Positions 4,171 to 60,825 of a stretch of DNA of 64,000 bases are shown piece by piece. Below the pieces are notes generated by a model. That model was not told the origin of the DNA. It did not search any database and saw only the letters and a list, made by a program, of their open reading frames with translations. This DNA comes from Schmidtea polychroa. Its lineage: Eukaryota. How positions within the stretch are numbered: position 1 is the stretch's first letter; each line of letters opens with the position of its first letter. The position numbers and the translations under genes were made by a program. The DNA lies in the NCBI GenBank assembly GCA_044892525.1, contig CM097885.1:29390001-29454000 (forward strand). The letters run 5' to 3'.

Positions 4171-4223
<53 letters not shown>

Positions 4224-21828: not shown

Positions 21829-21911
<83 letters not shown>

Positions 21912-25180: not shown

Positions 25181-25855
25181 TATTTATTGAATGAATATTA
25201 AATAATTTAAAGTTAGTTCTAAGATAAATTTAATTAATTTCTTGATAATTGGATGTATTTTTAATTTTTAATGAGGTTAATAATTAGAGTTTGTACAATA
25301 ATCAAGTGGTAGGATAAATTTTTATGAGGATATTGAATAATTTTCTAAGAATTTCATGTTGACTGATTTAAAGTTTTAATGGTGATAAATTTCTTGATAA
25401 TTAGTTGTATTTTATTGAATAGTTTTTAAATAAAAATTAATTTCATTGACAATTAGGTTAATAATTAAGTGATTTTTGATGATAACTTTGTAATGTATTT
25501 GACTAAATAATTTTTCAATAATTTTCTAAGAATATTTACACATTGATGCACTTTAAAAAACATAAGCTAAGAAACCAGTTAACTTTATCAAGGACTTTAA
25601 ATTTACGTGATAATTATTGTAGGATATACAGAAATTTAGTTTGCTGTTATTGCTTGAAAATGATTGGTTGAATAGCTGAAGAATTATGATCAAACAATAT
25701 ATAGCATCTCCAGTATTTGATGGTAAATATTTGTAGAAAATTTAGTGAATTTTGATCTTTTAGTGGGCTCTTATTATTTGTCTGGTTCCTATAACAATTA
25801 ATTAAAAGTCATATTTTTGAAGTTCTCTGAGGATTTTAAGAGGATTGATATATAT

Positions 25856-26354
25856 CAAGGGTGGGCACGCATGGGTTCAATAAGAGCCATTTTCCGAAAA
25901 TTTATTTTTTACAGAGCCACCATAGTAAAGTACATATTTTTTTTTATTTCATTAATTTGATTAAAGAGACTTAAACGCTATTAAAAAAAAACAAAATAAT
26001 TATTTCAAACATTAAGTAACAAACATAAAAATCCATTAATAAAAAGTAATAAAATTTCTTGAATTAACGAAGACTTTTGGTCAAATCTTTGAAATTTGGT
26101 GTATACTTTGTTAAAGCTAAATTTATTTTTGATGCTTCTCTCTCGTTGTTATAACAAAGCGCCGCCTACTACAAAATAATTTTAAAAAGCAGTAAAATGT
26201 GAAAAACAATGTTTCGTTAATTTTTGACATTTATGAAAATACAATTGCAACAAAAAATTTTTTCTCAAAACATTTAGTGAAAAATTTCAAAATAAAAAAT
26301 CGAATTCGATTATCAAGAATTCAATTATCAATGAGCCGCATTTACCCACCGTTG
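25856..26354. mobile_element. Non-autonomous hAT element
   Basis: Ends CAAGGGTGGG..CCCACCGTTG; 8 bp TSD ATATATAT; subterminal GAGCC motifs; minus-strand remnant LALTKYTPNFKDL; the empty homologous site is in element A near 9965. Confidence 0.8.
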
Positions 26355-26414
26355 ATATATATTAAAGGGCTCAAGTGGGTGGAATCTTTAGGGAAAATAA
26401 GGGATATAATCGGA

Positions 26415-28968: not shown

Positions 28969-29057
<89 letters not shown>

Positions 29058-31975: not shown

Positions 31976-31976
<1 letters not shown>

Positions 31977-32121
31977 GTAGTAGTGTGTTTATATCCCTAA
32001 CCAAAACAGCCCTCCCAACAAAACATACCTCCATTACGCCTAAACCATTAGAAAAACAACCTAAAACCTATACTTTTATAATATTTTAACCCTATATTTT
32101 TGAAAACAACCACCCTTAATA

Positions 32122-32375
32122 CTGCCCTCCTTATCAAATAGACCGTAACTGACAAAACTACAAAAATCGAGTTAGAGGCGTCAACTGTATGCAGTTGCAA
32201 TTAACCTTCATTCTGCTTAGCGATAACACCGTAACTGCATCACTAGGCCTAGATGCAAACAAATATAAATGGATGATTGGTTTAGGTTTACTGGTTGGCA
32301 GAATTGAAAACACGTTTTGCTATTTATCTCCTAAGTGTATTTTTGCAGTTACGGTCTATTTGATAAGGAGGGCAG
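32122..32375. mobile_element. MITE inserted in the left TIR; 30 bp TIRs and 4 bp TSD AATA (superfamily uncertain, Sola-like TSD length)
   Basis: CTGCCCTCCTTATCAAATAGACCGTAACTG..CAGTTACGGTCTATTTGATAAGGAGGGCAG; the empty site CCCTTAATACCCC is present in the right TIR. Confidence 0.9.
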
Positions 32376-32621
32376 AATACCCCTAACTGTTTTAATCTTT
32401 AAAGCCTCAAACTCAAAACATAAAGAGAATAGAAAAGAAAATGGTATAATGAAAAAGTTAGAGGGCTATTTTGGTTAGGGATATAAACACACTACTTGAG
32501 ACATTGTTTTGATCGTAATCAAACTCTAGAGTTGATCTTTATCAGATTATTGATTTTAAATTATATAAAACTTAAAAAATTGAAAAAGAATAAAAAATTT
32601 TATGAAATAGTAAAACTGCTC

Positions 32622-32995
32622 TGAGAGGACAGTGGTATTTTTTTTTTTTTTTCACTGTCCTCTCAACAGTTTTTTTGATCCGGATCATTTTTTTATTCAA
32701 CCTCTTTCGTTTATCAAATCTCTTCCAATATACAAGCTGGCCAGACTCATACATCAGAATCAATCCGATAATAGCAGCACACCTTATTATTCGCTTCTCG
32801 CTCGAATACGATTTCATCGGCGTTTTAAGTGTGCTGCTCGAAAGTACAAATGAATTCGAAAGCGAATCCGAAAGAGGTCCAAAAACAACTGAGAAATAAA
32901 TGTACACAGTTAGGAATCGATCCGGGTGTGTTCGAAAGACTGGTGGCGATAATTACCGGTTCGCCACCATCACCCGTTTCAATAATTTTTTTTTC
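32622..32995. ncRNA. Candidate structured RNA or ssDNA element within the TIR (copies at ~45724-46105 and ~55807-56170)
   Basis: Nested perfect helices of 13, 10, 10, 9 and 6 bp in a GC-richer island. Confidence 0.45.
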
Positions 32996-33256
32996 ATATT
33001 TATGTTTAAAAATAAAATAATTAATAAAATAAATAAAATAAATAAAATAAATAAAAAAAATAAAATAAATAAAATAAATAAAATAAATAAAATAAATAAA
33101 ATAAATAAAATAAATAAAATAAATAAAATAAATAAAATAAATAAAATAAATAAAATAAAATAAAATAAAATATAAATAAATAAAATAAAATATAAATCTA
33201 AGATACCCACACCATTTTCAATATTATTTTCAAATTTTTAATATTATTTTATGTTG

Positions 33257-33337
33257 AAAAAAAACTAACCTCAGATGTGATTTGAACCGCTATCTATTTG
33301 CACTACTGTGCCAGTCTAGCCCACTGCGCTATCGGGC
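33257..33337 (-). ncRNA. tRNA-like Pol III unit in the left TIR
   Basis: A box TAGCGCAGTGG, B box GGTTCAAATCA, T8 terminator. Confidence 0.6.
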
Positions 33338-33376
33338 TTTGGATTTTTTGTCATTTTTTAAATTTTTATTATAAAA

Positions 33377-34654
33377 ATGAATAATATAAATCTTAAAATT
33401 CAAGAAAAAAATAAATTAAATCTTGATTATAATAAAGAATTTACTCATGAAATCAAGAAAAATGATATTTTAAAAATCTCGCCAACTTCAGGATCTATAG
33501 CAAACTTAAATCGTAGGGGTGATATAGTTTTTCAATCTCTTCAAACATCAAACCCAATAGATATTTGTAATGCCAAATTATATTATAAAATTGAATTAGA
33601 AATTGAAGCAAACAAAGATATAACCCTAGAAAATAATTTCTTTCCAAATTTATTCTCCAACATGAGATTAAAACTAGGATCATCAGAAATTGAAACTGTT
33701 TTACATCCAGGAGTATATTCTACAATGTTAAATTTTATTTTGACAGGTTGTGATTATAAAAACGAATATTGGATTCCTGATGTTAATAAAGGAGATTTAG
33801 ATAAAGATGGTTTAGATATAAATTATGGTTATTATAAAAGAGCTGAACTTTATAAATCTAAAAAATTTGACGGTTATTTTGAATTAAAACATTTATTTGG
33901 ATTCCTTCAAAATTATAACCGTGTACTTCATAATGTTTCTATAGAATTCATCTGTAATAGACTAGAAGGTGATAAAAGATTGTTCTATGGAGCTGCAGAT
34001 ACAAAAGCTAAATTAAAATTATCAACACTTGAATTGCATATACCTGAATGGACATTAAACCCACATTCTGAAATCAAACTCCTTGAAAGATTAAATTCCA
34101 ACAAATCTATAAATGTAAATTATTTAAATAGAATCTGTAGTGAATTTAGTATGACAGAGGGTTCAACATATTCTATAAAGGTAGCAAATTTAGCATACCA
34201 ACCAAGATATATCTTGATTGGATTCAAAGAAGTAGATTCATCTTTCCAAAAAAATAACAACTTGTTTATTCAAAAGATTGGAGATGATAATTTAAAAACA
34301 ATCCAAATTCAATTAAATAGTTCTTATTATCCAATAAATAGAATGGAATTTAATATTGAAAATAATGAAAACATATTCCCATATCTAAATTATATTGAAA
34401 CATGTTATGATTTCAAAGTTGAACCGCAATTAAGTTTAGAAGATTTCAAAAATTTATATTCTATATTTTGTATAAATGTATCAGATCAAGATGATAGATT
34501 AGCCATAAATAATGTTGATGTTACACTTCATGTAACAAAGGATTCTAATTTCAAAGCTAAAGTATATACATTAATATTAGAAGAAAAGAAAATAGAAATG
34601 AAATTATATGGTGGAAAGATTTCAATTATTGAAAATGTTAGGGGAGATTCTTGA
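33377..34654 (+). CDS. Major capsid protein (double jelly-roll, Polinton type)
   Basis: 425 aa; ITLENNFFPNLFSNMRLKLGSSEIE..PG..STM, PRYILIGF, QIQLNSSYYP and YSIFCINVS motifs; genomic context. Confidence 0.85.
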   Translation: MNNINLKIQEKNKLNLDYNKEFTHEIKKNDILKISPTSGSIANLNRRGDIVFQSLQTSNPIDICNAKLYYKIELEIEANKDITLENNFFPNLFSNMRLKLGSSEIETVLHPGVYSTMLNFILTGCDYKNEYWIPDVNKGDLDKDGLDINYGYYKRAELYKSKKFDGYFELKHLFGFLQNYNRVLHNVSIEFICNRLEGDKRLFYGAADTKAKLKLSTLELHIPEWTLNPHSEIKLLERLNSNKSINVNYLNRICSEFSMTEGSTYSIKVANLAYQPRYILIGFKEVDSSFQKNNNLFIQKIGDDNLKTIQIQLNSSYYPINRMEFNIENNENIFPYLNYIETCYDFKVEPQLSLEDFKNLYSIFCINVSDQDDRLAINNVDVTLHVTKDSNFKAKVYTLILEEKKIEMKLYGGKISIIENVRGDS

Positions 34655-34683
34655 TATAATCCCTGATATTTTAACATTTTAAA

Positions 34684-36075
34684 ATGTCTCTAAATAAACG
34701 GTATTGGAGATGTGAAACTTGTAATTGTCAAGTTACAAAACATCACAAAGCAAATCATTTAAAAACTAAAAAACATACAGGAGGTGATCTACAATCTTCA
34801 AAAACAACATCTTCAATATTAAAACCTTTTACTACAGAAAAATATCCAGGTGAAAGACATTTATTTAAACACAACTATACCGGACCAGGAACACGTCTAG
34901 ATATTAGATTAGATAAAAATAATAATCCTAAACAAGGAGAAGAACCAATAAATAGAATTGATCAAGCAGCTTTAAAACATGACATTGCTTACAATTCAGA
35001 AGATCTTAGAGATAGACATGTTGCAGATGTGAATTTAATACATGATTTAAATAGTATCCAAAATACATCAACCCAAGAAAAGATTCAAAGAGCTCTAGTT
35101 AAATTAGCAATGAAAGGTAAGATTTTCATAGGCTTAGGACACAGTCCGATCACAATGGGTGCAAGACTTCCTAAGAAAGCAAAAGATGTTGCTAATAAAA
35201 AGATTATCGAACAAGCAGAGATTGAAAGATCCCTCGAGAGTACAGCCAAGACTAGTTTACAAACCCCAACAGAATCAGAAATAAAATATGCCAACGAATT
35301 ACACCATGAATTTAGAAAAAATAAAAAATATTTAAAAGTTCAAGTACATGAAAAAGATCAAACATGGTCTGCAGATTTAGTCTTTATGCCAACCAAATCA
35401 TCAGACCCTGAAAAATATAAAATAATTTTAACTGTAATAGATTTATATACAAGATTTGCTTTTGCAAGGTGTTTAGAAAATAAAACAGGATATTCTATTA
35501 CAGAAGCATTTGAAAATATATTTGAAGAATATCAAAGAATTCCAAAATATTTATGGTGTGATAAAGGAACAGAATTTTATAACAAAGTTTTTACAAAGTT
35601 TTTAAATGAAAATGATATTAAATTATATTCAACAGAAAACGAAGGAAAAGCAGTTGTGGTTGAAAGATTAAATAGAACATTAAAAAATAAAATGTGGAAA
35701 TATTTTACTGCTATTGGAAAACAAAAATGGAACAATGAATTGTTACAAATGATTGTAAATGAATATAATAATGATGTACATAGTTCTATAAAATCAACAC
35801 CCTTAAATGCTTCCTTGAATCCTGAAACCATTAAAGTGGTAAATATTGAAAATGATGTTATTGAAAAACCAAAGTTTAAAATTGGTGACTGAGTAAGAAT
35901 ATTTAAATATAAAAATAAATTTGAAAAAGGATTCACAGCAAAATGGACAAATGAAATTTTTATTATAAATAAAATACATTATACAACTCCAATAACATAT
36001 AGCATCATTGATTTAAATAATGAAAAAATATTAGGTAGATTTTATAATAATGAGTTACAAAAAACAGATTTCTAA
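34684..36075 (+). pseudogene. int: Zinc finger - parvovirus-type phospholipase A2 - retroviral-like (rve) integrase fusion with a premature stop at 35890-35892
   Basis: CETC..HLKTKKH; NYTGPG and DQAALKHDIAY; DDE motifs WSADL, CDKGTEF, VERLNRTLK. The frame continues KFKIGD*VRI..FEKGFTAKWTNEIF..GRFYNNELQKTDF to TAA at 36073-36075. Confidence 0.92.
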
Positions 36076-36638
36076 AACAAACTTTTCCATATTTCAGCTT
36101 CTTCTCTATCCAAATAAATATAATTATATTTTTCTCTCCAATGATTATCAACAAACATATCAAACATATTCTTATCAGGTTCAACATTTGAAAATAAGTC
36201 ATTATAAATCATATTCTTATCACGGCGATCTAATTTAAAAAATATAAAACAATTAGAATTATTTCTTATAGAGTTTTTATCTAAAGCATAATAAGTTTGA
36301 GATATATAAATAACATTACAATTATTATGTCGACCTCGTGTAAAGTAACTCTTTTGAATCTCTTGATTTTTCATGTTAACAACATCATTAAATATAACTA
36401 GATTCTTTTTATCTTTAGGAAGTAAATCACAATGTAAAACATCTTCAGGTTTATTAGAGAATAAAACTTGAATCCATTCATTTTCACAAATATAATCATC
36501 TTCAAGCAACATCCTCAAAAGAAGTACATTCTTTCCACATCCAGAAGAACCAACAATTAATAATCTAAAATTATCAGGAAATACTTTATTATTAAATTTA
36601 CTCTTATGTCTATTTAAAATTGGTTTCCAAATATCCAT
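36072..36638 (-). CDS. A32/FtsK-like DNA packaging ATPase (possibly degenerate)
   Basis: Walker A GSSGCGKN, Walker B LVIFND, RGRH..IYISQ; likely start AAAATG at 36638. Confidence 0.88.
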   Translation of the reverse strand: MDIWKPILNRHKSKFNNKVFPDNFRLLIVGSSGCGKNVLLLRMLLEDDYICENEWIQVLFSNKPEDVLHCDLLPKDKKNLVIFNDVVNMKNQEIQKSYFTRGRHNNCNVIYISQTYYALDKNSIRNNSNCFIFFKLDRRDKNMIYNDLFSNVEPDKNMFDMFVDNHWREKYNYIYLDREEAEIWKSLF

Positions 36639-36653
36639 TTTATTTATTATAAA

Positions 36654-37202
36654 ATGACAACGGAAGAATCTTTGCAAGAATTAATAAATTCAAATAAAAA
36701 TAAATCAGTAGTAATTGATGGTAAAAAATATTTTATTGGAAAACATGTAAAAGAACAAGTTAAAGAACGTATTAGAGAAGGTGGCATTCTTCCATTAGCT
36801 GCTTTAATACCTGCAATCATTGCTGCTTTATCAGGTGCTGCTGGAATAGCTGGAGGAATTGCAACTACAGTTCAAAAAGCTAAAGAATCTCAAAAGACAG
36901 ACCTTGAAAAAGAAAAACTACAAACTGAAATCGAGAAAATGAAGGTAGGGCAAGCTAAAGGAAAAGGTCTCTATCTTAATCCATATCAGGGCAAAGGTCT
37001 CTATCTTGATCCATATAAAGGCAGAGGTTTAAATGACTTTTTAAAAAATCAAATTTCAACATCTGAATCTTTATCATCAAAAGATAAAGATGATTTTAAA
37101 AAAATATGTAAATCTTTAAAGAATGGGTGTATTTGTAAAATTGGAGGAACTCCACAGAATAGTGGTAAAGGATTGTATTTAAAACCTTGGAAGGAACAAT
37201 GA
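36654..37202 (+). CDS. Virion core or membrane-active protein resembling the adenovirus pX C-terminus
   Basis: GGILPLAALIPAIIAALSGAAGIAGGIA hydrophobic segment; three GKGLYL repeats. Confidence 0.65.
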   Translation: MTTEESLQELINSNKNKSVVIDGKKYFIGKHVKEQVKERIREGGILPLAALIPAIIAALSGAAGIAGGIATTVQKAKESQKTDLEKEKLQTEIEKMKVGQAKGKGLYLNPYQGKGLYLDPYKGRGLNDFLKNQISTSESLSSKDKDDFKKICKSLKNGCICKIGGTPQNSGKGLYLKPWKEQ

Positions 37203-37224
37203 TACCATTTTTAATACCATTAAA

Positions 37225-38063
37225 ATGGTATATGAAGAAAGATTAGCACTTTTAAAAAAATTACAATCAGAACAAAACAAGTATAATAAAAAAGATACAA
37301 CTCAACAAACTGAATCTATAATATTAAATGAGGTAATCCAACAACAACAAGGACCAACAATTAAAGCTATAGAGAGACTTAAAACTATAGAAGCTCCTCT
37401 AACCCCCGAACATAAAGCTATAGAAGCCCCTAAAAAGGAATTACTAAGATTAGTAGGAAAAAACGTAGAAATAATATTGATTTAGAAGAAGATGAATTTC
37501 TTTCAAGATTAACACCTCATAAGACTCCAATTAATTTTAAAATTAATACATCACTAGCTCCATCAATTATACCTACTATAGGTTATGATCCTAGAGGTTT
37601 TCAAACAATAACAATTAATAATCAAAAATTTTATATATATTTAAATTCAGAAAATAATCCATCGATTATTTCAACAAATACTTTTATGAATAGAGAGCGT
37701 GTTGACATTGAACTTTCAGATGATTTTCATGGATTAATTTCTGGATATATTCCAGATGGTGTCAAGAATGAAGAAATTGATAAATATTTAAACTTAATAA
37801 AATTAATAAATGGTAGCCCTAAAGCAAAACATATTAAAGATTTAAAGAAATATAAAGATAGAGATAAAACAGGCCCTCAAATTCAAATCATTGAAGGAGA
37901 AGGCCTCAACCCTATAAATCTTTTTATTGAATTAAGAAAACTATTAGCAGCTAAAAAAGCAGGACATAATAATTTAGATTCTGATATTTTAAAGATTTCT
38001 AAAGATTTGTTAAAACAAGGAATAATTTCAAAAGATAAATTTAATAAGTATACGAAGTTATAA
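37225..38063 (+). pseudogene. Polinton hypothetical protein split by a frameshift
   Basis: The second frame is open from ~37434 (ITKISRKKRRNNIDLEEDEF...) through to the ORF at 37686-38063, which ends GEGL..LLAAKKAGHNN. Confidence 0.65.
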
Positions 38064-38085
38064 ATACGAAGTTATAAAATACAAA

Positions 38086-39279
38086 ATGGCTTCAATATTA
38101 GATGTTTTAATAACATTTGGAATAAATGCAAAAACAAATTTTGATTTAAAAGATTATGCAGATTATTTAAATTTAAAAATTAAAATATTAATGAATGATG
38201 AATTGTCGAGTCTGAAAGAAGACACTCCAAAGAATATCATTATAAATTATCAAAATTCAAATGAAAAAGGATCTCATTGGGTTTGTATATATAATAAATC
38301 TATCTACTTTGATTCTTTTGGGATTAAACCTACTAAAGAAGTTGAAGACTATCTGTCGAAGGACTATACTTTTAATTCTTTACAAGTTCAACCTAATAAT
38401 ACTAAAATATGTGGTATTATAAGCTTATATGTTTTGTATAGATTGAATAAATCCAAAGGAGAAGGTTTCACTTCCTTAATCCAAGAAATTTATAATGATT
38501 TAAAATCTCTACTAAAAGAAATGGAAGATAATTTTAAAAAAATGGTAAACATAATGTCAGATAAATATTCAGGAACTTTATCTATAAATTCAAAAGAATC
38601 AGACTTTACTATAAACTTTCAAGATTCAATAAAATTAGATCAAAATTTAAATTATGAATTAGGTCTATTATGGTTTTGTGCTTATAATACTATTTTTAAT
38701 ATAACTAAAGATAATAACACATTTAGTTATGTAAGCCCCCCAAAATTCGAGGATAACATTATAATAATAATAGAACCCGGGGCTTATGAGATAAAAGATT
38801 TAAATAATATACTTTCTAAAAAAACAAATGGAGCTATTGAAATTAAAATAGATTTACCAACTTCAAAATGTATAATGACTTTAAAGAATATAGGAATTAG
38901 GTTTCAAAATAATAGTTTCTTTAGAACAATTTTAGGATTTACACAGAGTCATTATAACATACCTAAAGTTGAGAAAGAATCTATTATAACATCAGAACAT
39001 ATTATAAAAATAATAAATACAAACACAATAAATATTCATTGCGATTGTATAACAGGTTCTTATAATAATGGTAAACAAACAAATGTTTTATATTCCTTTC
39101 CCTCAAACACAGTTCCTATGGGATATAAAATAGTTGAAAGAATGAATCCTCCAAATTATTTGCCTTTATGTAGAAAATATATAATGGATATTAATTTTAA
39201 AATTCTTAATCAAGAAGGAGAATTGATTGATTTTAATGGAGAAGAGATTTCAATGTATTTACATTTGAAACAGGTTTGA
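38086..39279 (+). CDS. Adenain-like cysteine protease fused in frame to the minor capsid protein (penton)
   Basis: GSHWV, YFDSFG and Q..ICG catalytic motifs; the C-terminal part has INIHCDCITGSYNNG..LYSF..GYKIVE and LIDFNGEEIS; the two are separate ORFs in copy 2. Confidence 0.88.
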   Translation: MASILDVLITFGINAKTNFDLKDYADYLNLKIKILMNDELSSLKEDTPKNIIINYQNSNEKGSHWVCIYNKSIYFDSFGIKPTKEVEDYLSKDYTFNSLQVQPNNTKICGIISLYVLYRLNKSKGEGFTSLIQEIYNDLKSLLKEMEDNFKKMVNIMSDKYSGTLSINSKESDFTINFQDSIKLDQNLNYELGLLWFCAYNTIFNITKDNNTFSYVSPPKFEDNIIIIIEPGAYEIKDLNNILSKKTNGAIEIKIDLPTSKCIMTLKNIGIRFQNNSFFRTILGFTQSHYNIPKVEKESIITSEHIIKIINTNTINIHCDCITGSYNNGKQTNVLYSFPSNTVPMGYKIVERMNPPNYLPLCRKYIMDINFKILNQEGELIDFNGEEISMYLHLKQV

Positions 39280-39303
39280 AGATTCATTTTAAATTATTAA
39301 TAA

Positions 39304-40314
39304 ATGAGTTCTTATATTCCATGTAATAGAGGTGGTGGAACAATAAAAACAGGGTTTAATACAGAAGAAATATTAACTTTAACAGAAAATAAATATATTA
39401 ATGAAAGAGGTGATTCAATGAAGGGTGATTTAATTTTAAATGGACACAAGATAAAAGAATTATCTTTTCCAACTGATGAAGCTGATGCAGTTAATAAGAA
39501 ATATGTAGATGGTGTTAAAAAATTTACTGATTTAACAACAACAAGAATTGAAAGTTCATTAACAACAAAAATTGATTCAATGGAATCAAAGCTTAATAAT
39601 ATCGAACAACGATTCAATGATAAATTTGACAAGTTACAAAGTCTGTTAACTGAGCAAGTTGTAAGGTTAAATACTAGCATATTAAATTCTAAAGATAAAC
39701 AAATTATGAATACTAAATTTAATACAATATATAATATAATAAATGAGATGATTACATCATTTAATAAAAGAATTTCAAATTTAGAGTCTCATGGAACACA
39801 CATTAACACCACACATAGTATTAGAAAAAGAGCTGCTGAATTAGAACAGAATAAAACATTATTACCCCATACATATAAACATTTTAAAGAACCAAGTTTA
39901 ATAACAACAAACAGTAAAGAATGGAGTGTTTTTATGGTTGTAAAGATTATTGATCCTTATTTCTTTTTGTTTGATGATGATAATGAAAGAATGAAATGGT
40001 TTGTGAAATGTGATTATAATAGTAAGCTTAAAAAGGGTGATGTTATAATGACTAGTTATGATTTACCACACGGAGATTGGTATGTTAATACTCATTCACA
40101 TGGACTACATAAAGTTAAAAGTAAGAATATTATTTTTAAAAGCACACTTGTACAATATATAGATTTAATATTTTATGAAAAAAAGGTTGATGTTGATGAA
40201 GTTCGTAAAGCATTGAGAGAATTGTATAAAGATATCCTCTCAACAAGAGTTTCTTTTGATATCCGAGTATTGGTACCAGATGGTGCTCAGAAGAATAAAG
40301 TCTTATTTTTTTAA
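39304..40314 (+). CDS. Fibre-like protein with coiled coil
   Basis: MKGDLILNGHKIKEL..PT...DAVNKKYVD neck/fibre motif, heptad region and globular C-terminus. Confidence 0.55.
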   Translation: MSSYIPCNRGGGTIKTGFNTEEILTLTENKYINERGDSMKGDLILNGHKIKELSFPTDEADAVNKKYVDGVKKFTDLTTTRIESSLTTKIDSMESKLNNIEQRFNDKFDKLQSLLTEQVVRLNTSILNSKDKQIMNTKFNTIYNIINEMITSFNKRISNLESHGTHINTTHSIRKRAAELEQNKTLLPHTYKHFKEPSLITTNSKEWSVFMVVKIIDPYFFLFDDDNERMKWFVKCDYNSKLKKGDVIMTSYDLPHGDWYVNTHSHGLHKVKSKNIIFKSTLVQYIDLIFYEKKVDVDEVRKALRELYKDILSTRVSFDIRVLVPDGAQKNKVLFF

Positions 40315-40322
40315 TTATTAAA

Positions 40323-40898
40323 ATGGAAGAAGTAAGAGAAGAAAAAATTTACCCAGAATTGAGATCATCTGGATATTATTCTTCCAAGGCCTCGGCTCCC
40401 ACAGAACTTGAAATTATGAGAGTAAAAGAATTTAAATCAGAAACCTTACATTTACAAGATTTATTAAAGCATTATAAAAAAATTAAAAATAGATGGAATA
40501 AAGGGAATACAGTTTTAAAAGTTATAGGTTATTCTTTAGGATTTGCATCTGCAATATTAACAGTTATTTTACCTATAACTTTACCAGTTGTTACTCTTGC
40601 ACCTGTAATACTTGGAAGTATTTCAGTAGCTGATGGTTTCCTAACTGAAATAGTTTCACTATCTTATACTTCTAAAAAGAAAAGTTTATATCGTGAAGTT
40701 TGTTTATCAATAGAATTAGGAATCTCTAAATTATTTTTATTTCAATTAAAAGGTTTAGAAGATGGAATCTTAACTGATGATGAAATAATGAAATCAAATC
40801 AAATAATACAAGATATTAAAAATGAGGTTATAAGATTAAAAAGTGCTAATGTTATAAGTAATGAATATTCTAAAAAAATTAAAGAAAAAAATGGTTAA
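40323..40898 (+). CDS. Membrane protein with a hydrophobic hairpin and YPxL/SAP motifs
   Basis: IYPEL..ASAP; VIGYSLGFASAILTVILPITLPVVTLAPVILGSISV. Confidence 0.7.
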   Translation: MEEVREEKIYPELRSSGYYSSKASAPTELEIMRVKEFKSETLHLQDLLKHYKKIKNRWNKGNTVLKVIGYSLGFASAILTVILPITLPVVTLAPVILGSISVADGFLTEIVSLSYTSKKKSLYREVCLSIELGISKLFLFQLKGLEDGILTDDEIMKSNQIIQDIKNEVIRLKSANVISNEYSKKIKEKNG

Positions 40899-41009
40899 AG
40901 AATTCTTACTTATAAAATGGATGAATTTTTAAAAAAGTAGATCAAGTTGCTATAGTTGCTTATATTAATTGTCGAGGTTTTATTATTAAAAAATTAAATA
41001 TCGTTGGTT

Positions 41010-44000
41010 TCAGTTATGGTTGAAAGCCAACCTATGAATCATTAATTTATGATCTTTAAATTCTTTATCACTTAGACCTTTTATATATTCAGGATCAGTA
41101 TTAAAATATTTAAGTTCTAAACATATAGGATTAAAAACTTGAGAATATAAAGGCTTCTCGATTTCTCTCTCGGGATAAATAATTTCAACATTATAAATAT
41201 CAAGATCGGTAATATTTGTATCATATAACTTATTCAACTTTTCTAGATTTTTTATTATAGGGATTAAATTATTTCCAATAGGTAGAGTTGTCTTTAAGTC
41301 ACTTAGGATGAATCTTTTATCATCATAATTTGATAATGATACTTTTTGAGATTCTATCAAGTGAATATCATGGTTTTCACTTTTAAGTTGATGTATTTCA
41401 TCAATTTTATCTTTATGATTTGGATTCAATGTATCTATATAATCTTGATGAGAAAGATTCTTTGCAACTGATTTCTGTATTCCTTTACATCTTTTATCCT
41501 TTACAGGTTTTTCTTCTTGTCCCTCTGGTCCTTTAGGAAATATAGGATATCTATGTGTAATGGTTTCTTCTGTTTCTGGGGTTTTAAATATAAATGATCT
41601 AGTTATAAATTCAGGGTTTCTAAATGTTTCGTATGAATATTGTTTAGCACGAATAAATATTCCATTTTCTATAATAGTAAAAGGTTTTTCATCTTTAAAC
41701 GAAAATAATTCTCCAGATGAATTTATTAAATTTGAAAGTATAGGATTTTCGGCTATATCTCTTTGTAAATCATGAGTTCTTATTGTTAAAAACATTGAAT
41801 CTGTACCCATTGCATGCATTGATATATTAGAACCATATATAGGTTGTAAGATGTTATAATATGTTTCATACATTTGTAATTTTGAAAGTTCTAAAATTGA
41901 AAACCCTATAAATATTGGTTTGTTGTATGTTTTCTCAAAATTCTTTAGTTCTATTGCAGTAAGACTTTCAGAAAATACTTGTGCGTTTTTAAATGTAGGC
42001 TTTCCTAGCATATGATTATAACGCTTAATGTCTTTGGTAGTATTTGTTAGGAGTTCAATATGAGTATATTTATCAACATTCTCCATTGTCTTCCCAAAGA
42101 CTGAATTGTTTAAAAGTTTATAATTATTATCTTTAAAAAGGTTACCTTCTCTTTTTGCAATGTTTCGACATCTAATGTTCTCCTCGATAAAAGCTTTCAT
42201 GAATGGCCTCTGTTTAAATCTTATGACACTATGAACTGTTTTTAATATCATACCTCGTGAAAGATAAAATTGGAGGAGTCTATAGTGACAAAGATAATAA
42301 GTTCGATCTGTTTGATCACAAAGAAGTTTCATTGTTGGAGGTTTATCTTGTGAGATTTGCCATTCAGAAAGTTCGTTGATATCAATCTTTCTTCTTACAG
42401 GAGCTAAAGGAAAATATCTTGTTCCTGATTTTATATCATCTGGATATAATAAGTCACATTCTACAAAGTAACCTATTGGAGAATCTTTAGGTGTTGAAAG
42501 TATTTCTTTTACAAGAGTCTTTAATGATTCTTCATTAGAGGGATATATTTCAATGAAATCACCCATTGGTAAATATTGAGTCATAATTCCTGAATATAAA
42601 GCTGTTGCATCTATATAAAGTATAAATATAGGATTTTTCATTGTTTCTAATAATTCCTTTAATTCCTCATTGTTAATTTTCATATATGGATCAGAAGTCT
42701 TTGAAAGCATTCTGCTAGTAGTTATTGCATTTCTAGCTTTTATTTCTCTATTCCCCATTACTGAAGAGACTCCTTCTCTAATGTTTGTTTTAATTAGATT
42801 AAACATATCGAGGTTAGTTAAAAGATCTATAATTTTATCAGATTCTTCTATATTTGAAGTCCAAATGGTATATAATAAAGTATCCCAAGCTAAAGAGGGT
42901 GCTGTTATGTAATTGTAAGGTTTAAGAACAAAAGACTTTGTAAATTCTTCAAAGCAATCTGCTAGAATATAAACATCCAAGGATAAATACATGTTGGTAT
43001 ATTCTCCTAAAGTTTTACACTTGAATAATTCCCACATTTTATTTGCTCGAGAATATTCTTGATCTGTAATATGATATTTTTGAAGTTGTGAATAGAAATC
43101 TTTTTGGCTAGGAAGAATTGTTTCATTATATCTTTCAAATGAATCAACATAGTCATAAGGATATATTCCTTTTGCTAAGCATGTAGAATATTTTTCTAGA
43201 GGAATATTATTTTTTTCCAAGAATTCTCGAGTGATTTTAAAATTTTCTGGTTTCATTGTTTTTGCTACTGCATCTAGAGACATTTGGAGAAAGTTTAACG
43301 AGTCTATAAATTTTAATTTTCCATATTTAACTGATTTATATTTTTCCTTTGTAAGTCCTATAACTTTGAAAGAGCTTTTAGCATTTTCTGCTAATTGTTT
43401 AATAAATAGATGTATGTCATAACCAAAAAGATTATGAAATATAACAGGTACAAATTTAGGAGTATGACAATTAAGATTGCAATTTTTATGAGCTGCTCCT
43501 CGATAATTATTTTCCTTTTTTAAATGATCATGATCGGGGACTTTTATATTTTTCGAAGATTGTTGTCTTTCATGAAAGATTCTTTGTTCTTCTTCTTCAA
43601 TAGTTTCATTATTTGGAGGTTCCTCAAAGAGTTGATTCTCAAATGGTTGTTTACACATCCAACAATTTGAAGAATTTTCATAGTCTTCCCATTGTTCGGT
43701 TGAAAAATTTATTTCATATTTTGTTTTTAATACTTTAAATATATCGTGTTCTAGATCATTTATACTTTTGGTAAAATGATTTAAAACATCTTCTGAAATT
43801 CCATGAAATGTATATTCTCTAGATTCTATGAGTTCAGGATAATTGCTTTTAAATAATAATTTATAAGCAGATGGTAATTGTTTAGTTTTTTTAACACTAT
43901 TAGGTTTGTTTCTTTTTCTTAGAAAGGCTTTCATCCTCTCTGGTTTCATCTTCTCTCCTGAGGAGTTCCATGAATCCATGAGTTTATTTTTTTCTATTAT

Positions 44001-45410
44001 ATTTAAATATTGATTAACCAAATCTTGTTTACGATTTATAGATTCAAAGTCTCCATAAATCACTCCTACTGTTTGTAGTAAATTTGAAAAGTTTTTAAAA
44101 TGCATCTTGGGATCTTTAGGCATGTTAATTAAAGCTGGTTCATCTTTTTCACAAAATCTTGTATGTTTAATCATAGAGTTTTTAGTTGTTGAATAATGAA
44201 GACATCTTTTACTTGTTCCTCCTCCACTAGTTGGATTCTCTGGTGATGTAAAAGCTTGAAAGTTTTTTATTAAAACATAATGTTGATTATTTTGTTGTTC
44301 CAAGATTAAAAGATATATTTCTCTAGGGTTATCGGTTCCACTATCAGAAATGTAAATTGGAATAATTTCTCTGCTATTAACATGTTTCCCTTTAACACGT
44401 TCATAAATATTAATTTTAAGATTATTTAAACTTTCAAATTCTGGAATGTCTTCTAGTTTCATTGGATGTTTGAATCCTTTGGGAAATATTAATTCATTTT
44501 CATATTGTTTGTATTTTGAAACTCTTTGAGGGTTTGATTCTTGAGGATGTAAATGTGCAAGTATTGACCAGATGAAACATTTGTTATCATTATTCTGTAT
44601 GTTTATAACATTTTTATATGTAAAGGGTGTAGGAATATAAGATTTAGGATTGGGTGGTAATCCTCTCCAATAATCAATCACTAAAGTTTGGAAAGAGTTG
44701 AATACTAAGTTTGAATCTCCTAATTCATTTTCAACCTCTTCTTGTTTTGCTTCTACTGCTTAAATTATTTTTTTGATGGTTTTATCAAATCCTTTAGTTG
44801 AAAATAAATATTTAAAGGGTATTCCAATTTCAACATCTAAAGGTGTTGTCTTTTCTTCTGCTCCTCGCCAGTATTTTGCTTTGATTATAATTTTATATTT
44901 TATAACATTATACCTTGTCGGTTTATAATTTTTTAAAGCTTCAGTGAAAGAATTTTTAATATATTTTTTATTTTTATTTATATATTCTCCAGGAGTTATA
45001 GGTCCATTGATTTCTAATTGAAATTCATCTACATGATTAAAATCATCCCAGTTATATTTTTCTCTTTCAACATGATCAGGTTCTCCTTCTGAATGACATT
45101 CCTCATCGTCAGAATTTTGTTTTTTATTTTTACATTCTTTTATATGTTCTAAATAATAGAAATTTAGTTTTGTTGAAAAGTTACAATGAGGACATGTAAA
45201 TATTTCTCTATTTTTCCCGATACAATTTTCAAAATGTTTATTATATCCAGAATGTAGAAATCTTCCTTTACATTTAGGACAAACTTTTGAATTTGTATCA
45301 TTAAGATTGTTTTCTTTTAATAAATGAGCTTTCGATTTTAAGTGAGAAATCAATCCAGTTTTATTTTTAAAAACTTTATTACAAATATTACAATTCATTT
45401 TTAGAAACAA
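41010..45410 (-). pseudogene. polB: Protein-primed family B DNA polymerase with N-terminal zinc fingers and an endonuclease VII-like insert; one nonsense codon
   Basis: YGDFES, FHNLFGYD, YIDATALY, KLLNNSVFGK; DHDH..YRGAAHKNCN; TAA at 44760-44762 where copy 2 has CAA; motif C reads MGTDS. Confidence 0.95.
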
Positions 45411-45477
45411 ATTTTTTATAGGATACCTTGTTTTGATTTTTTATGATGTTTTTATATTTATTTTCATAATGTGACAG

Positions 45478-46506
45478 TAATAAAAATTTAAAAAATGACA
45501 AAAATCTAAAACCAGATAGCGCAGTGGGCTAGACTGGCACAGTGGTTCAAATGGATAGTGTTTCAAATCCTAACTGTGGTTAGTTTTTTTTCAACATAAA
45601 ATAATATTAAAAATTTGAAAATAATATTGAAAATAGTGTGGGTATCTTATATTTATATTTTATTTTATTTATTTTATTTATTTTATTTATTTTATTAATT
45701 TTATTAATTTTTAAACATAAATATGAAAAAAAAATTATTGAAACGGGTGATGGTGGCGAACCGGTAATTATCGCCACCAGTCTTTCGAACACACCCGGAT
45801 CGATTCTATAATGTGCACATTTATTTCTCAGTTGTTTTCGGACCTCTTTCGGATTCGCTTTCGAATTCATTTGTACTTTCGAGCAGCACACTTAAAACTC
45901 CGATGAAATCGTATTCGAGCGAGAAGCGAATAATAAGGTGTGCTGCTATTATCGGATTGATTCTGATGTATGAGTCTGGCCAGCTTGTATATTGGAAGAG
46001 ATTTGATAAACGAAAGAGGTTGAATAAAAAAATGATCCGGATCAAAAAAACTGTTGAGAGGACAGTGAAAAAAAAAAAAAAAAAAAATACCACTGTCCTC
46101 TCAGAGCAGTTTTACTATTTCATAAAATTTTTTATTCTTTTTCAATTTTTTAAGTTTTATATAATTTAAAATCAATAATCTGATAAAGATCAACTCTAGA
46201 GTTTGATTACGATCAAAACAATGCCTCAAGTAGTGTGTTTATATCCCTAACCAAAATAGCCCTCTAACTTTTTCATTATACCATTTTCTTTTCTATTCTC
46301 TTTATGTTTTTAGTTTGAAGCTTTTGAGTTTGAGGCTTTAAAGATTAAAACAGTTAGGGGTATTAAGGGTAGTTGTTTTCAAAAATATAGGGTTAAAATA
46401 CTATAAAAGTATATGTTTTAGGTTGTTTTTCTAATGGTTTAGGCGTAATGGAGGTATGTTTTGTTGGGAGGGCTGTTTTGGTTAGGGATATAAACACACT
46501 ACTACT
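45478..46506 (-). repeat. Right TIR of Polinton 1
   Basis: Reverse complement of the left TIR. Confidence 0.95.
45511..45591 (+). ncRNA. tRNA-like Pol III unit in the right TIR
   Basis: TAGCGCAGTGG...GGTTCAAATGG..GTTTCAAATCC...T8. Confidence 0.55.
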
Positions 46507-55416: not shown

Positions 55417-56321
55417 AGTAGTGAGGAATCTATGCACCCCAGCACCCCCACCCTCAAAAAAAAACAGCGCTATTGACCCATATTTTCCACATTTATATGC
55501 TTTTTTACCCCATATTCTTCACTTTTTTTAACTTTTAAACTTTGTCCCCTATTGCCATTAACCCTTAATTTCTTCCCTTAAAAGTAAAAAAGTTCGGAAT
55601 AGATGTATTTATAGATTAGTAATTCCGAGAAAAGGTAACGGGGTGCATAGATTCCTCACTACTTGGTCTTAAGGATTTAATGTTATAAGGATTTAATGTT
55701 ATAAGAATATCAGATTACCTAATTCATAATGATCTAGGTCGCCTGATCACCTTAAGGTTTTGAAAGTTTTAAAAATAAAAAATTTTATGAAATAGTAAAA
55801 CTGCTCTGAGAGGACAGTGGTTTTTTTTTTTTTTTTCACTGTCCCCTCAACAGTTTTTTTGATCCGGATCATTTCAACCTCTTTCGTTTATCGAATCTCT
55901 TCGAATATACAAGCTGGCCAGACTCATACATCAGAATCAATCCGATAATAGCAGCACACCTTATTATTCGCTTCTCGCTCGAATACGATTTCATCGGGGT
56001 TTTAAGCGTGCTGCTCGAAAGTACAAATGAATTCGAAAGTGAATCCGAAAGAGGTCCGAAAACAACTGAGAAATAAATGTGCACATTAAAGAATCGATCC
56101 GGGGGTGTTCGAAAGACTGGTGGCGATAATTACCGGTTCGCCACCATCACCCGTTTCAATATTTTTTTTTCATATTTATGTTAAAAATAAAATAATTAAT
56201 AAAATAAATAAAATAAATAAAATAAATAAAATAAATAAAATAAAATAAAATAAAATAAAATAAAAATAAATAAAATAAAATATAAATCTAAGATACCCAC
56301 ACTATTATTTTCAAATTTTTT

Positions 56322-56409
56322 AAAAAAAAAAAAACTAACCACAGTTAGGATTTGAACCGCTACCCATTTGAACCACGGTGCCGGTCTAGCCCACTGCGCT
56401 ATCTAGGTT
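56322..56409 (-). ncRNA. tRNA-like Pol III unit in the TIR of Polinton 2
   Basis: TAGCGCAGTGG A box, consensus B box GGTTCAAATCC, T13 terminator. Confidence 0.62.
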
Positions 56410-56507: not shown

Positions 56508-59500
56508 ATGAATTTTAATATTTGTAATAAAGTTTTTAAAAATAAAACTGGATTAATTTCTCACTTAAAATCGAAAGCTCATTTATTAAAAGAAAACAAT
56601 CTTAATGATACAAATTCAAAAGTTTGTCCTAAATGTAAAGGAAGATTTCTACATTCTGGATATAATAAACATTTTGAAAATTGTATCGGGAAAAATAGAG
56701 AAATATTTACATGTTCTCACTGTAACTTTTCAACAAAAGTAAATTTCTATTATTTAGAACATATAAAAGAATGTAAAAATAAAAAACAAAATTCTGACGA
56801 TGAGGAATGTCATTCAGAAGGAGAACCTGATCATGTTGAAAGAGAAAAATATAACTGGGATGATTTTAATCATGTAGATGAATTTCAATTAGAAATCAAT
56901 GGACCTATAACTCCTGGAGAATATATAAATAAAAATAAAAAAAATATTAAAAATTCTTTCACTGAAGCTTTAAAAAATTATAAACCGACAAGGTATAATG
57001 TTATAAAATATAAAATTATAATCAAAGCAAAATACTGGCGAGGAGCAGAAGAAAAGACAACACCTTTAGATGTTGAAATTGGAATACCCTTTAAATATTT
57101 ATTTTCAACTAAAGGATTTGATAAAACCATCAAAGAAATAATTCAAGCAGTAGAAGCAAAACAAGAAGAGGTTGAAAATGAATTAGGAGATTCAAACTTA
57201 GTATTCAACTCTTTCCAAACTTTAGTGATTGATTATTGGAGAGGATTACCACCTAATCCTAAATCTTATATTCCTACACCCTTTAAATCTAAAAATGTTA
57301 TAAACATACAGAATAATGATAACAAATGTTTCGTCTGGTCAATACTTGCACATTTACACCCTCAAGAATCAAACCCTCAAAGAGTTTCAAAATACAAACA
57401 ATATGAAAATGAATTAATATTTCCCAAAGGATTCAAACATCCAATGAAACTAGAAGACATTCCAAAATTTGAAAGTTTAAATAATCTTAAAATTAATATT
57501 TATGAACGTGTTAAAGGGAAACATGTTAATAGCAGAGAAATTATTCCAATTTATATTTCAGATTATGAAGTTAGAGATAATGAACCCCAGGATAACACTA
57601 GGGAGATATATCTTTTAATCTTGGAACAACAAAATAATCAACATTATGTTTTAATAAAAAACTTTCAAGCTTTTACATCACCAGAGAATCCAACTAGTGG
57701 AGGAGGAACAAGTAAAAGATGTCTTCATTATTCAACAACTAAAAACTCTATGATAAAACATACAAGATTTTGTGAAAAAGATGATCCAGCTTTAATTAAA
57801 ATGCCTAATAATCCCAAGATGTATTTTAAAAACTTTTCAAATTTACTACAAACAGTAGGAGTGATTTATGGAGACTTTGAATCTATAAATCGTAAACAAG
57901 ATTTGGTTAATCAATATTTAAAAATAATAGAAAAACATAAACTCATGGATTCCTGGAACTCCTCAGGAGAGAAGATGAAACCAGAGAGGATGAAAGCCTT
58001 TCTAAGAAAAAGGAATAAACCTAATAGTGTTTAAAAAACTAAACAATTACCATCTGCTTATAAATTATTATTTAAAAGTAATTATCCTGAACTCATAGAA
58101 TCTAGAGAATATACATTTCGAGGAATTTCAGAAACAGAAGTCTTGAATCATTTTACTAAAAGTATAAATGATCTAGAACATGAAATATTTAAAGTATTAA
58201 AAACAAACTATCCTCAAAATATTTCTAATCAACAACAACAAGAATATGAAAACACTTCCAACTGTTGGATGTGTAAACAACCATTTGAAGAGTCTCCGAA
58301 TATAAAAGTCCTCGATCATGATCATTTAAAAAAGGAAAATAATTATCGAGGAGCAGCTCATAAAAATTGTAATCTTAATTGTCATACTCCTAAATTTGTA
58401 CCTGTTATATTTCATAATCTTTTTGGTTATGACATACATCTATTTATTAAACATTTAGCAGCAAATGCTAAAAACTCTTTCAAAGTTATAGGACTTACAA
58501 AAGAAAAATATAAATTAGTTGAATATGGAAAATTAAAATTTATAGACTCGTTAAACTTTCTTCAAATGTCTCTAGATGGAATAGCTAAAACAATGAAACC
58601 AGAAGATTTTAAAATCACTCGAGAATTCTTGGAAAAAAATAATATTCCTCTAGAAGAATATCCTACATGTTTAGCAAAAGGAATATATCCTTATGACTAT
58701 GTTGACTCGTTTGAAAGATATAATGAAACAATTCTTCCTAGCCAAGAAGATTTCTATTCACAACTTCAAAAAAAATCATATTACAAATCAAGAATATTCT
58801 CGAGCAAATAAAATGTGGGAATTATTCAAGTGTAAAACTTTAGGAGAATATACAAGTATGTATTTATCCTTGGATGTTTATATTCTAGCAGATTGCTTTG
58901 AAGAATTTACAAAATCTTTTGTTCTTAAACCTTACAATTATATAACAGCACCCTCTTTAGCTTGGGATACTTTATTATATACCATTTGGACTTCAAATAT
59001 AGAAGAATCTGATAAAATTATAGATCTTTTAACTAACCTCGATATGTTTAATCTAATTAAAACAAACATTAGAGAAGGAGTCTCTTCAGTAATGGGGAAT
59101 AGAGAAATAAAAGCTAGAAATGCAATAACTACTAGCAGAATGCTTTCAAAGACCTCTGATCCATATATAAAAATTAACAATGAGGAATTAAAAGAAATAT
59201 TAGAAACAATGAAAAATCCTATATTTATACTTTATATAGATGCAACAGCTTTATATTCAGGAATTATGACTCAATATTTACCAATGGGTGATTTCATTGA
59301 AATAGAATCATCAAAAGAACTTATAAAAGAAATACTTTCAACACCTAAAGATTCTCCAATAGGTTACTTTGTAGAATGTGACTTATTATATCCAGATGAT
59401 ATAAAATCAGGAACAAGATATTTCCCTTTAGCTCCTGTAAGAAGAAAGATTGATATCAACGAACTTTCTGAATGGCAAATCTCACAAGATAAACCTCCAA

Positions 59501-60825
59501 CAATGAAACTTCTTTGTGATCAAACAGATCGAACTTATTATCTTTGTCACTATAGACTCCTCCAATTTTATCTTTCACGAGGAATGATATTAAAAAAAGT
59601 TCATAGTGTCATAAGATTTAAACAAGCTCCATTCATGAAAGCTTTTATCGAGGAGAACATTAGGTGCCGAAACATTGCAAAAAGAGAAGGTAATCTTTTT
59701 AAAGATAATAATTATAAACTTTTAAACAATTCAGTCTTTGGGAAAACAATGGAGAATGTTGATAAATATACTCATATTGAACTCCTAACAAATACTACCA
59801 AAGATATTAAGCGTTATAATCGCATGCTAGGAAAGCCTACATTTAAAAACGCACAAGTATTTTCTGAAAATCTTACTTCAGTAGAATTAAAAAATTATGA
59901 GAAAACATATAACAAACCAATATTTATAGGGTTTACAATTTTAGAACTTTCAAAATTACAAATGTATGAAACATATTATAACATCTTACAACCTATATAC
60001 GGAGCAAATATATCAATGCATGCAATGGATACAGATTCAATGTTTTTAACAATAAGAACTCATGATTTACAAAAAGATATGAAAGAAAATCCTATACTTT
60101 CAAATTTAATAAATTCATCTGGAGAACTATTTTCGTTTAAAGATGAAAAACCTTTTACTCCTATAGAAAATGGAATATTTATTCGTGCTAAACAATATTC
60201 ATACGAAACATTTAGAAACCCTGAATTTATAACTAGATCATTTATATTTAAAACCCCAGAAACAGAAGAAACCATTACACATAGATATCCTATATTTCCT
60301 AAAGGACCAGAGGGACAAGAAGAAAAACCTGTAAAGGATAAAAGATGTAAAGGAATACAGAAATCAGTTGCAAAGAATCTTTCTCATCAAGATTATATAG
60401 ATACATTGAATCCAAATCATAAAGATAAAATTGATGAAATACATCAACTTAAAAGTGAAAACCATGATATTCACTTGATAGAATCTCAAAAAGTATCATT
60501 ATCAAATTATGATGATAAGAGATTCATACTAAGTGATTTAAAGACAACTCTACCTATTGGAAATAATTTAATCCCTATAATAAAAAATCTAGAAAAGTTG
60601 AATAAGTTATATGATACAAAGATTACTGATCTTGATATTTATAATGTTGAAATTATTTATCCCGAGAGAGAAATCGAGAAACCTTTATATTCTCAAGTTT
60701 TTAATCCTATATGTTTAGAACTTAAATATTTTAATACTGATCCTGAATATATAAAAGGTCTAAGTGATAAAGAATTTAAAGATCATAAATTAATGATTCA
60801 TAGGTTGGCTTTCAACCATAACTGA
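56508..60825 (+). pseudogene. polB: Protein-primed PolB of copy 2, with one nonsense codon and one frameshift
   Basis: AAA>TAA at 58032-58034; +1 nt in the A-run at ~58769-58776; intact DTDS motif. Confidence 0.95.

What the first reader, a model, noticed from the sequence alone, without database searches (positions are those of the whole stretch)
33257..33337. Polinton TIRs carry a tRNA-like RNA polymerase III gene, a possible VA-RNA analogue
Seen: at the inner edge of all three visible TIRs (33257-33337 -, 45511-45591 +, 56322-56409 -) there is an ~80 nt unit. It has A box TAGCGCAGTGG, a B box (exact GGTTCAAATCC in copy 2, which also has a second GGTTCAAAT) and an oligo-T run, but no clear anticodon arm. 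The A box is invariant while the intervening bases vary. The unit points outward, divergent from the capsid ATG (~40 nt away) and the polB ATG (~100 nt away). Known: type-2 Pol III promoters use these boxes, adenoviruses (Polinton relatives) express Pol III VA RNAs that counter host RNA defences, and TFIIIC sites can act as chromatin insulators. Inference: this Polinton family encodes a small non-coding RNA, or a tDNA-like insulator shielding both inward promoters. I know of no standard description of this for Polintons.
Basis: partly seen in the sequence, partly recalled or inferred. Interest (0 to 1): 0.85.

Follow-up and report, generated by a model that had tools for sequence, protein, structure and literature searches.

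The report
tRNA-like polymerase III genes in Polintons
A large virus-like transposon carries short tRNA-like units at its ends, two of them shared with the host's ribosomal-DNA spacer; they are likely transcribed by RNA polymerase III and likely help keep the element's ends active, but no transcript or function has been shown.

Summary
The unit is real. All three copies have an A box, a B box 43 nt later (tRNA spacing) and a T8-13 run. It is not a tRNA, not a dispersed SINE (74 of 74 sampled loci lie in Polinton ends), and has no stable fold. Lineage variants avoid the boxes (2/22 versus 21/52 columns, p=0.012). The window copy is a short form: 33 of 60 capsid-picked left ends carry two more units (C, B). 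B passes the Rfam tRNA cut-off and matches the 5' half of host tRNA-Cys. C and B also sit, 94-96% identical, in the host rDNA intergenic spacer. A strongly folded ~380-nt block with a pre-miRNA-like hairpin lies 150 nt downstream on the same strand. Sibling Polintons with other ends lack all units, so they are accessory. Transcription was not shown. Best reading: a working Pol III unit whose value is promoter occupancy in cis rather than a VA-like structured RNA (0.42). It fails VA RNA membership on length and structure. My literature searches found no such report for Polintons. New variant of a known kind.

The parts
31976..46506 (.). Polinton element 1, ends AGTAGTAGT...ACTACTACT, inserted in an (AAT)n run
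   Evidence: genes
33257..33338 (-). Unit A, left TIR: A box 33331-33321, B box 33288-33278, T8 33264-33257 (start inferred 7 nt before the A box)
45510..45591 (+). Unit A, right TIR: A box 45517-45527, extra GGTTCAAAT 45544, B box 45560-45570, T8 45584-45591
56322..56408 (-). Unit A of element 2 (polB end): A box 56401-56391, exact B box 56358-56348, T13
45740..46115 (+). Strongly folded ~380-nt block, same strand as unit A, about 150 nt past its terminator
   Evidence: z -9.3 on this strand, -4.6 on the other; covariation
45949..46009 (+). 61-nt pre-miRNA-like hairpin, 25 predicted pairs, 7-nt loop
32610..32980 (-). Same folded block in the left TIR (hairpin 32771-32711)
55795..56157 (-). 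Same folded block in element 2 (hairpin 55948-55888)
33377..34654 (+). Major capsid gene (double jelly roll, PF21738)
34684..35892 (+). PLA2-like domain (PF08398) plus rve integrase (PF00665)
36072..36638 (-). A32-like packaging ATPase (PF04665)
41010..45398 (-). Protein-primed-type PolB (PF03175), broken into separate ORFs; N-terminal piece has zinc-finger matches
56508..60825 (+). PolB of element 2, broken into separate ORFs; its capsid end lies just beyond the window (L201) and carries units C, B, A, A

Best explanation
The unit has the full layout of a tRNA-type RNA polymerase III gene, is likely transcribed into a ~80-nt U-ended RNA, and likely serves this Polinton lineage mainly in cis, by holding TFIIIC/TFIIIB/Pol III next to the inward-facing capsid and polymerase promoters. 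Shown: boxes, spacing, terminator, confinement to element ends, box-sparing variation, and paralogs B and C shared with the rDNA spacer. Inferred: descent from host tRNA genes (shown only for B, from Cys); capture from the rDNA-spacer cassette; copying of an originally one-ended module into both TIRs; actual transcription; and an open-chromatin or barrier effect that favours unit-bearing lineages. The RNA body would be largely a by-product.
For: A-B offset is 42-44 nt in unit A and 43-44 in units B, C, D and E (one C variant at 47); units A-D carry a T run 11-14 nt past the B box, while E has only T4. Among 77 distinct capsid-ascertained copies of A, shared variants fall in 2 of 22 box columns, 21 of 52 other unit columns (Fisher p=0.012) and 0 of 6 T-run columns. 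The two variable box columns are the R of the A box and the last B-box base. The sequence between the boxes is not detectably alike between the common A form and B or C (shuffle p 0.38-0.80), and no fold is conserved. That pattern fits constraint on DNA promoter signals rather than on an RNA shape. Units are gained repeatedly: A-A duplicates, and C-B at two different positions. That tDNAs act as barriers, better when multimerised, is recalled and comes from no call; SINE-type Pol III elements as insulators is stated in PMC10886601 (Discussion).
Against: No transcript, Pol III or TFIIIC occupancy was shown. The constraint test is one modest p-value on related copies. Against flanking columns (25 of 85 variable) the box contrast is weaker, and B and C are nearly monomorphic, so they give no test. 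12 of 30 Pfam-picked capsid loci have no unit within 1.3 kb, and 11 of those 12 read out to about 3.5-4 kb still have none, so the unit is dispensable for Polintons here. One subfamily has no unit at the polB end (L390-L392). In the 'capsid - small ORF - A' form the unit is about 330 nt from the capsid ATG. A conserved terminator fits a functional RNA equally well.
Confidence: 0.42

Rival explanations
1. The units are true small-RNA genes acting in trans. Abundant tRNA-like RNAs (A, B, C), together with the neighbouring hairpin RNA, would decoy host RNA-silencing or tRNA-binding proteins, as VA RNAs, EBERs and TMERs do for vertebrate DNA viruses.
For: Clustered, divergent paralogs at a genome end with kept terminators. 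B keeps D and T arms, scores 32.4 bits against Rfam tRNA (cut-off 29) and folds at z -2.8. The adjacent block behaves like a selected RNA on the same strand: 18 versus 5 G-U pairs by strand; common variants (9 or more of 145 distinct copies) keep pairing in 13 of 16 cases; 0/500 shuffles reach its covariation score. Precedents: PMC4378190, PMC7589676, PMC11194592 (passages).
Against: Unit A itself has no fold and a variable body. B and C are also host rDNA-spacer sequences, so the host would already make the same RNAs. Only 2 pairs show two-sided change, and the tool warns that related sequences can beat its shuffles. PKR, the main VA target, is recalled as vertebrate-specific.
Confidence: 0.27
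2. The units are passengers: tRNA pseudogenes picked up from the rDNA-spacer cassette (B and C recently, A earlier) and spread by TIR homogenisation and the success of one lineage, with no benefit to the element.
For: Polinton C-B is 94-96% identical to the spacer copy and nearly monomorphic. Its insert sits at an AAAATT microhomology. Unit-free subfamilies exist with open capsid frames. Pokey transposons carry IGS sequence (PMC10946416, table passage).
Against: Box-sparing variation in A and an invariant terminator. A is 47-51% GC in a 27% GC element. A keeps tRNA spacing despite an internal ~16-nt duplication.
Confidence: 0.22
3. Unit A is the promoter for the downstream hairpin block, giving a tRNA-pre-miRNA chimera like the MHV68 TMERs.
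For: Same strand, about 150 nt apart; the two travel together in almost all architectures, including the one-ended subfamily.
Against: A T8 terminator and seven more T4-T5 runs lie between unit and block. No Rfam miRNA family reaches its cut-off.
Confidence: 0.09

Closest known systems
Adenovirus VA RNA genes (PMC7589676, passages)
   Same: Intragenic box A and box B, oligo-T terminator, tandem paralogs, hypothesised origin from a host tRNA gene; carried by a DNA element with a protein-primed polymerase.
   Different: VA RNAs are ~160 nt and highly structured with paired GGGU/ACCC. Unit A is ~80 nt, unfolded, lacks that pair and gives no Rfam VA match. It is terminal, and homology is not claimed.
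MHV68 tRNA-miRNA genes, EBERs, BLV Pol III pre-miRNAs (PMC4378190, passages)
   Same: Several tRNA-like Pol III units in one element; a pre-miRNA-like hairpin nearby.
   Different: Here the hairpin is cut off from the unit by strong terminators, and no RNA has been shown.
BocaSR of human bocavirus 1 (PMC11194592, passages)
   Same: Type-2 Pol III unit in the terminal non-coding region of a small DNA virus.
   Different: BocaSR is 140 nt, structured and important for viral DNA replication; this unit is absent from sibling lineages.
Cassandra / Helenus TRIMs (PMC10886601, abstract and Discussion)
   Same: tRNA- or 5S-derived Pol III promoter inside the terminal repeats of a mobile element, with promoter kept and RNA degenerate.
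   Different: Those are retroelements that use the promoter to copy themselves. A Polinton replicates as DNA, and the unit points outward and terminates at once.
tRNA genes of polinton-like and MELD viruses (PMC12220804 passages; PMC8502044 Fig. 6 legend)
   Same: tRNA-related sequence in Polinton relatives.
   Different: Those were called by ARAGORN/Rfam as tRNAs and read as codon supply. Unit A is invisible to both tools and cannot fold as a tRNA.
Pokey elements carrying rDNA IGS sequence (PMC10946416, table passage)
   Same: DNA element sharing a block with the host rDNA spacer.
   Different: Here the shared block is a pair of tRNA-like Pol III units.

Membership tests
Type-2 Pol III gene | A box and B box at tRNA spacing | tested here: met
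   Offset 43 in all three copies; 0 in 150 simulations
Type-2 Pol III gene | Oligo-T terminator after the B box | tested here: met
   T8, T8, T13 at 13 nt
Type-2 Pol III gene | Pol III / TFIIIC occupancy and discrete transcript | tested here: inconclusive
   Only contigs of runs guessed to be RNA were available
tRNA gene | Cloverleaf with acceptor and anticodon stems | tested here: not met
   A: ARAGORN 0, not called even at 85% threshold in the loci printed. B: Rfam 32.4 bits but acceptor and anticodon stems broken
Adenovirus VA RNA | ~160 nt, stable three-domain fold, GGGU/ACCC pair | tested here: not met
   ~80 nt, z about 0, motif absent, no Rfam match
Adenovirus VA RNA | Blocks PKR, Dicer or export | not testable with these tools
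   Needs bench assays
tRNA-derived SINE | Dispersed insertions independent of a carrier element | tested here: not met
   Unit A: 30/30, 30/30 and 14/14 loci adjoin Polinton terminal sequence; 74 loci read against 1207 exact hits plus uncounted variants
TMER-type tRNA-pre-miRNA chimera | Hairpin inside the same Pol III transcript | tested here: not met
   T8 plus seven T4-5 runs intervene; read-through not measured
tDNA / ETC insulator | TFIIIC binding and barrier activity | not testable with these tools
   Only sequence constraint available
Polinton (carrier element) | PolB, rve integrase, DJR capsid, A32 ATPase, long TIRs with AGT ends | tested here: met
Polinton (carrier element) | Adenain-like protease; 6-bp target duplication | tested here: inconclusive
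   No protease family hit among the ORFs scanned; target is an (AAT)n run, so a duplication cannot be read

The most novel reading that the evidence does not exclude
Animal Polintons have a terminal non-coding RNA module: an array of tRNA-derived Pol III genes, repeatedly exchanged with the host rDNA spacer, plus a hairpin RNA yielding element-encoded microRNAs. It suppresses host silencing and is an independently built counterpart of adenovirus VA RNAs and herpesvirus TMERs, overlooked because tRNA scanners miss it.
Probability: 0.2. Interest if true: 0.87.

Novelty: new variant of a known kind. Interest (0 to 1): 0.62.

Why it matters
Polintons are described almost wholly by their proteins. 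This lineage carries constrained non-coding parts that standard scanners miss, at over a thousand copies per genome. If transcribed, they would be a large uncounted share of Pol III targets and a testable case of how a host tRNA becomes a viral Pol III gene, the route hypothesised for VA RNA. Lineages with and without the units coexist in one genome, which gives a natural comparison for silencing. The antisense tRNA-like array found in the host rDNA spacer is a finding in itself.

Tried and rejected
Expression: no RNA holder listed. Contigs of three runs guessed to be RNA (X1, X2, X7) cover unit A. One X1 contig runs from the small ORF into A, and one X7 contig bridges the capsid 5' end across A past its terminator, so no discrete RNA is shown. 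Summed contig depth peaked over A in X2, but the tool says depth cannot rank parts, and X1 and X2 are one study; not used. The laid stretch did not include the hairpin block.

Viral and prokaryote collections gave none. 38 metagenome loci (23-52% identity, mostly short and probably lacking ends) had no unit under a strict pattern. Two viral-contig motif hits were chance, with no B box. Cross-species conservation is therefore untested.

Other Polinton families in this genome: three capsid searches returned only this family's subfamilies in the loci read (85-100% identity).

Direction of the B-cassette exchange: the tree is unresolved.

Parent tRNA of A or C: only Lys, Arg and Cys host genes were obtained. 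An Asp-type motif found nothing. The host comparisons used truncated sequences and were discarded in favour. Relaxed ARAGORN calls of C as Sec and B as Ser were not trusted.

Coding constraint as the cause of A-box conservation: the small ORF ends inside A at some left ends, but its C-terminus varies and it was not seen at the polB ends examined; rejected. Earlier scan notes: none.

Full report
Observation. The three units exist as described. Each has an A box, a B box starting 43 nt after the A-box T, and a T8-T13 run 13 nt after the B box; the host's own tRNA-Lys and tRNA-Arg genes show about the same offset. A generic box scan finds only these three sites in 64 kb and none in 150 simulated element-length sequences. 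The carrier is a Polinton at 31976-46506 with capsid, PLA2-integrase, A32 ATPase and a broken PolB. A second copy begins near 55760 and runs off the window. ARAGORN and Rfam do not see the unit, and it folds no better than shuffles (z -0.62 to +0.54).

Distribution. The genome (G000, 781 Mb) has 1207 exact copies of the A-box 16-mer, with 0 for the reversed control. The 30 best BLAST loci, the first 30 pattern loci and 14 further variant loci all adjoin Polinton terminal sequence. That is 74 loci read, the last 44 from the start of contig C1, so a rare outside copy is not excluded. A generic A+B pattern has 24,957 hits against 428 for the control. By my count of the first 100 rows, 81 are Polinton units, 3 are rDNA-spacer units, 15 are a satellite and 1 is other. 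Unit A is therefore not a dispersed SINE.

The window copy is a short form. Of 60 left ends fetched by capsid position alone, 57 have A, 34 have a second unit B and 33 a third unit C. The commonest order is capsid - C - B - small ORF - A - TIR, all units pointing outward; A-A duplicates are common. B has 1411 and C 1992 exact hits. The element-2 end just beyond the window has C, B, A, A (L201). The three units share the box letters, a TAG after the A box, 43-44-nt spacing, and GGTYA before the T run. Between the boxes the common A form is not detectably like B or C. One A variant is weakly like both (p 0.013 and 0.040), and B is weakly like C (p 0.018). Common descent of A with B and C is thus suggestive only. 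B passes the Rfam tRNA cut-off (32.4 versus 29 bits) with broken acceptor and anticodon stems. It matches host tRNA-Cys(GCA) at 25 of 29 positions from the A box through the anticodon (only three host isotypes were compared).

Constraint. Among 77 distinct copies of A from capsid-picked loci, variants shared by three or more copies fall in 2 of 22 box columns, 21 of 52 other unit columns (p=0.012), 0 of 6 T-run columns and 25 of 85 flank columns. The two variable box columns are the second A-box base (A/G) and the last B-box base. Copies are related, so this is modest evidence. B and C are almost invariant and give no test.

The rDNA link. One C-pattern locus lacked a capsid gene (L176). Its flank recurs about every 13 kb on several contigs, and Rfam shows these repeats are 18S-5.8S-28S rDNA. 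Five of six rDNA stretches read carry an array E-C-B(-B-B) of tRNA-like units; the sixth shows E and a B fragment. The array is antisense to rRNA, about 3 kb upstream of 18S in the four stretches that include 18S, and all units have 44-nt spacing. Polinton C-B is 94-96% identical to it, and unit A was not found there. The array lies in a ~2.9-kb stretch bounded by imperfect inverted repeats. A 1245-nt satellite holds a copy of B diverged 14-18% that shares spacer flank seen in no Polinton. A second Polinton subfamily holds C-B at a different position with about 50 nt more spacer flank. These nested boundaries favour capture from the spacer-type cassette, but the tree does not resolve direction; I put spacer-to-Polinton at about 65% (inference).

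The units are accessory. Of 30 capsid loci picked by the Pfam model, 18 have units and 12 have none within 1.3 kb. Eleven of the 12 were read further and still have none; four of them end in different short TIRs. In the L376-L378 subfamily, A, the folded block, C and B lie inside a short TIR at the capsid end only, and the polB ends have none. The two-ended arrangement in the window is thus likely a TIR extension over a one-ended module (inference).

A neighbouring structured block. About 150 nt past A's terminator, on the same strand, 45740-46115 folds at z -9.3, against -4.6 on the other strand, with 18 versus 5 G-U pairs. It includes a 61-nt hairpin (45949-46009) in which all six common variants keep pairing. 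Two pairs in other helices show two-sided change. In 40 of the 145 distinct copies, 0 of 500 shuffles reach the covariation score, but 63 of 500 reach the count of two-sided pairs, and related sequences can beat such shuffles. Paired columns are not less variable than unpaired ones (27/226 versus 18/155). No Rfam family reaches its cut-off. A T8 and seven T4-5 runs separate it from unit A, so it is probably not part of the same Pol III transcript. It may be a separate RNA, or a structure used in single-stranded DNA.

Expression was not shown: only contigs of runs guessed to be RNA were available (see Tried and rejected).

Mechanism. Promoter, spacing and terminator are kept while the RNA body and fold are free, and units are gained repeatedly beside the inward promoters. 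I therefore favour a working Pol III unit that matters through occupancy in cis (0.42). Rivals are a trans-acting decoy RNA (0.27), a passenger (0.22) and a promoter for the hairpin block (0.09). tDNA barrier behaviour is recalled, not tested.

Literature. Nine full-text searches (listings seen) returned no report of degenerate tRNA-like Pol III units in Polinton ends. 'Polinton' with 'RNA polymerase III' gave six general reviews, seen as listings only. I read passages of PMC8502044, PMC4378190, PMC12220804, PMC11194592, PMC10946416 and PMC7589676, and the abstract and Discussion of PMC10886601. No supplements were read, and repeat-library annotations and subscription journals are not covered; either could mention this. 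Each ingredient has precedent: viral Pol III RNAs, Pol III promoters in retroelement LTRs, tRNAs in polinton-like viruses, and IGS capture by Pokey. Their combination in a Polinton appears undescribed in what I could search. Verdict: real, new variant of a known kind, interest 0.62.

Noticed in passing
L286:7252-8290; L318/L319 (G000:C202), L320/L321 (C115), L322/L323 (C2 end), L324: Host rDNA intergenic spacer carries an antisense array of three to five tRNA-like Pol III units at ~240-nt period inside a ~2.9-kb inverted-repeat-bounded stretch; unit E occurs there and was not seen in Polintons.
   Followed up: partly
L270/L271 (G000:C1:145883-167106): 1245-nt tandem satellite containing a diverged B cassette (unit D) with a weakened B-box tail.
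   Followed up: partly
L287:3096-9500: Long reverse-transcriptase-like ORFs splitting a 28S gene; looks like an R2-type insertion (name from position and recall; not scanned).
   Followed up: no
L161:1737-2003 (absent from window element 1): 89-98-aa charged, probably coiled-coil ORF pointing outward, whose stop lies inside unit A; no significant Pfam match.
   Followed up: partly
window:32122-32376: ~255-nt insertion with ~30-nt terminal inverted repeats and an apparent AATA duplication inside the left TIR; MITE-like.
   Followed up: no
window:1918-15445 and 21092-30283: Two large foldback structures with kilobase arms at 97-100% identity and internal tandem repeats.
   Followed up: no
L376-L378, L390-L393, L142, L203: Sibling subfamilies share the capsid but differ in PolB (~70% DNA identity where read) and have short TIRs that are themselves bounded by inverted AGTAGTG...CACTACT-type ends; points to modular end swapping.
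   Followed up: partly
window:45903-46169 (+), 32572-32817 (-): An 81-88-aa frame with a hydrophobic stretch overlaps the folded block; only 41 aa in L376. Coding status unknown.
   Followed up: no
G000:C1:269.25 Mb; C4:76.66 Mb; C140, C333: Host tRNA genes lie in long single-isotype tandem arrays (1000 hits for the Cys motif; Lys at 424-nt and Arg at 278-nt period).
   Followed up: no
G000 genome-wide: Very high Polinton load: 2500-4900 first-look capsid candidates, and most of the ~100 scored per search have open frames.
   Followed up: no
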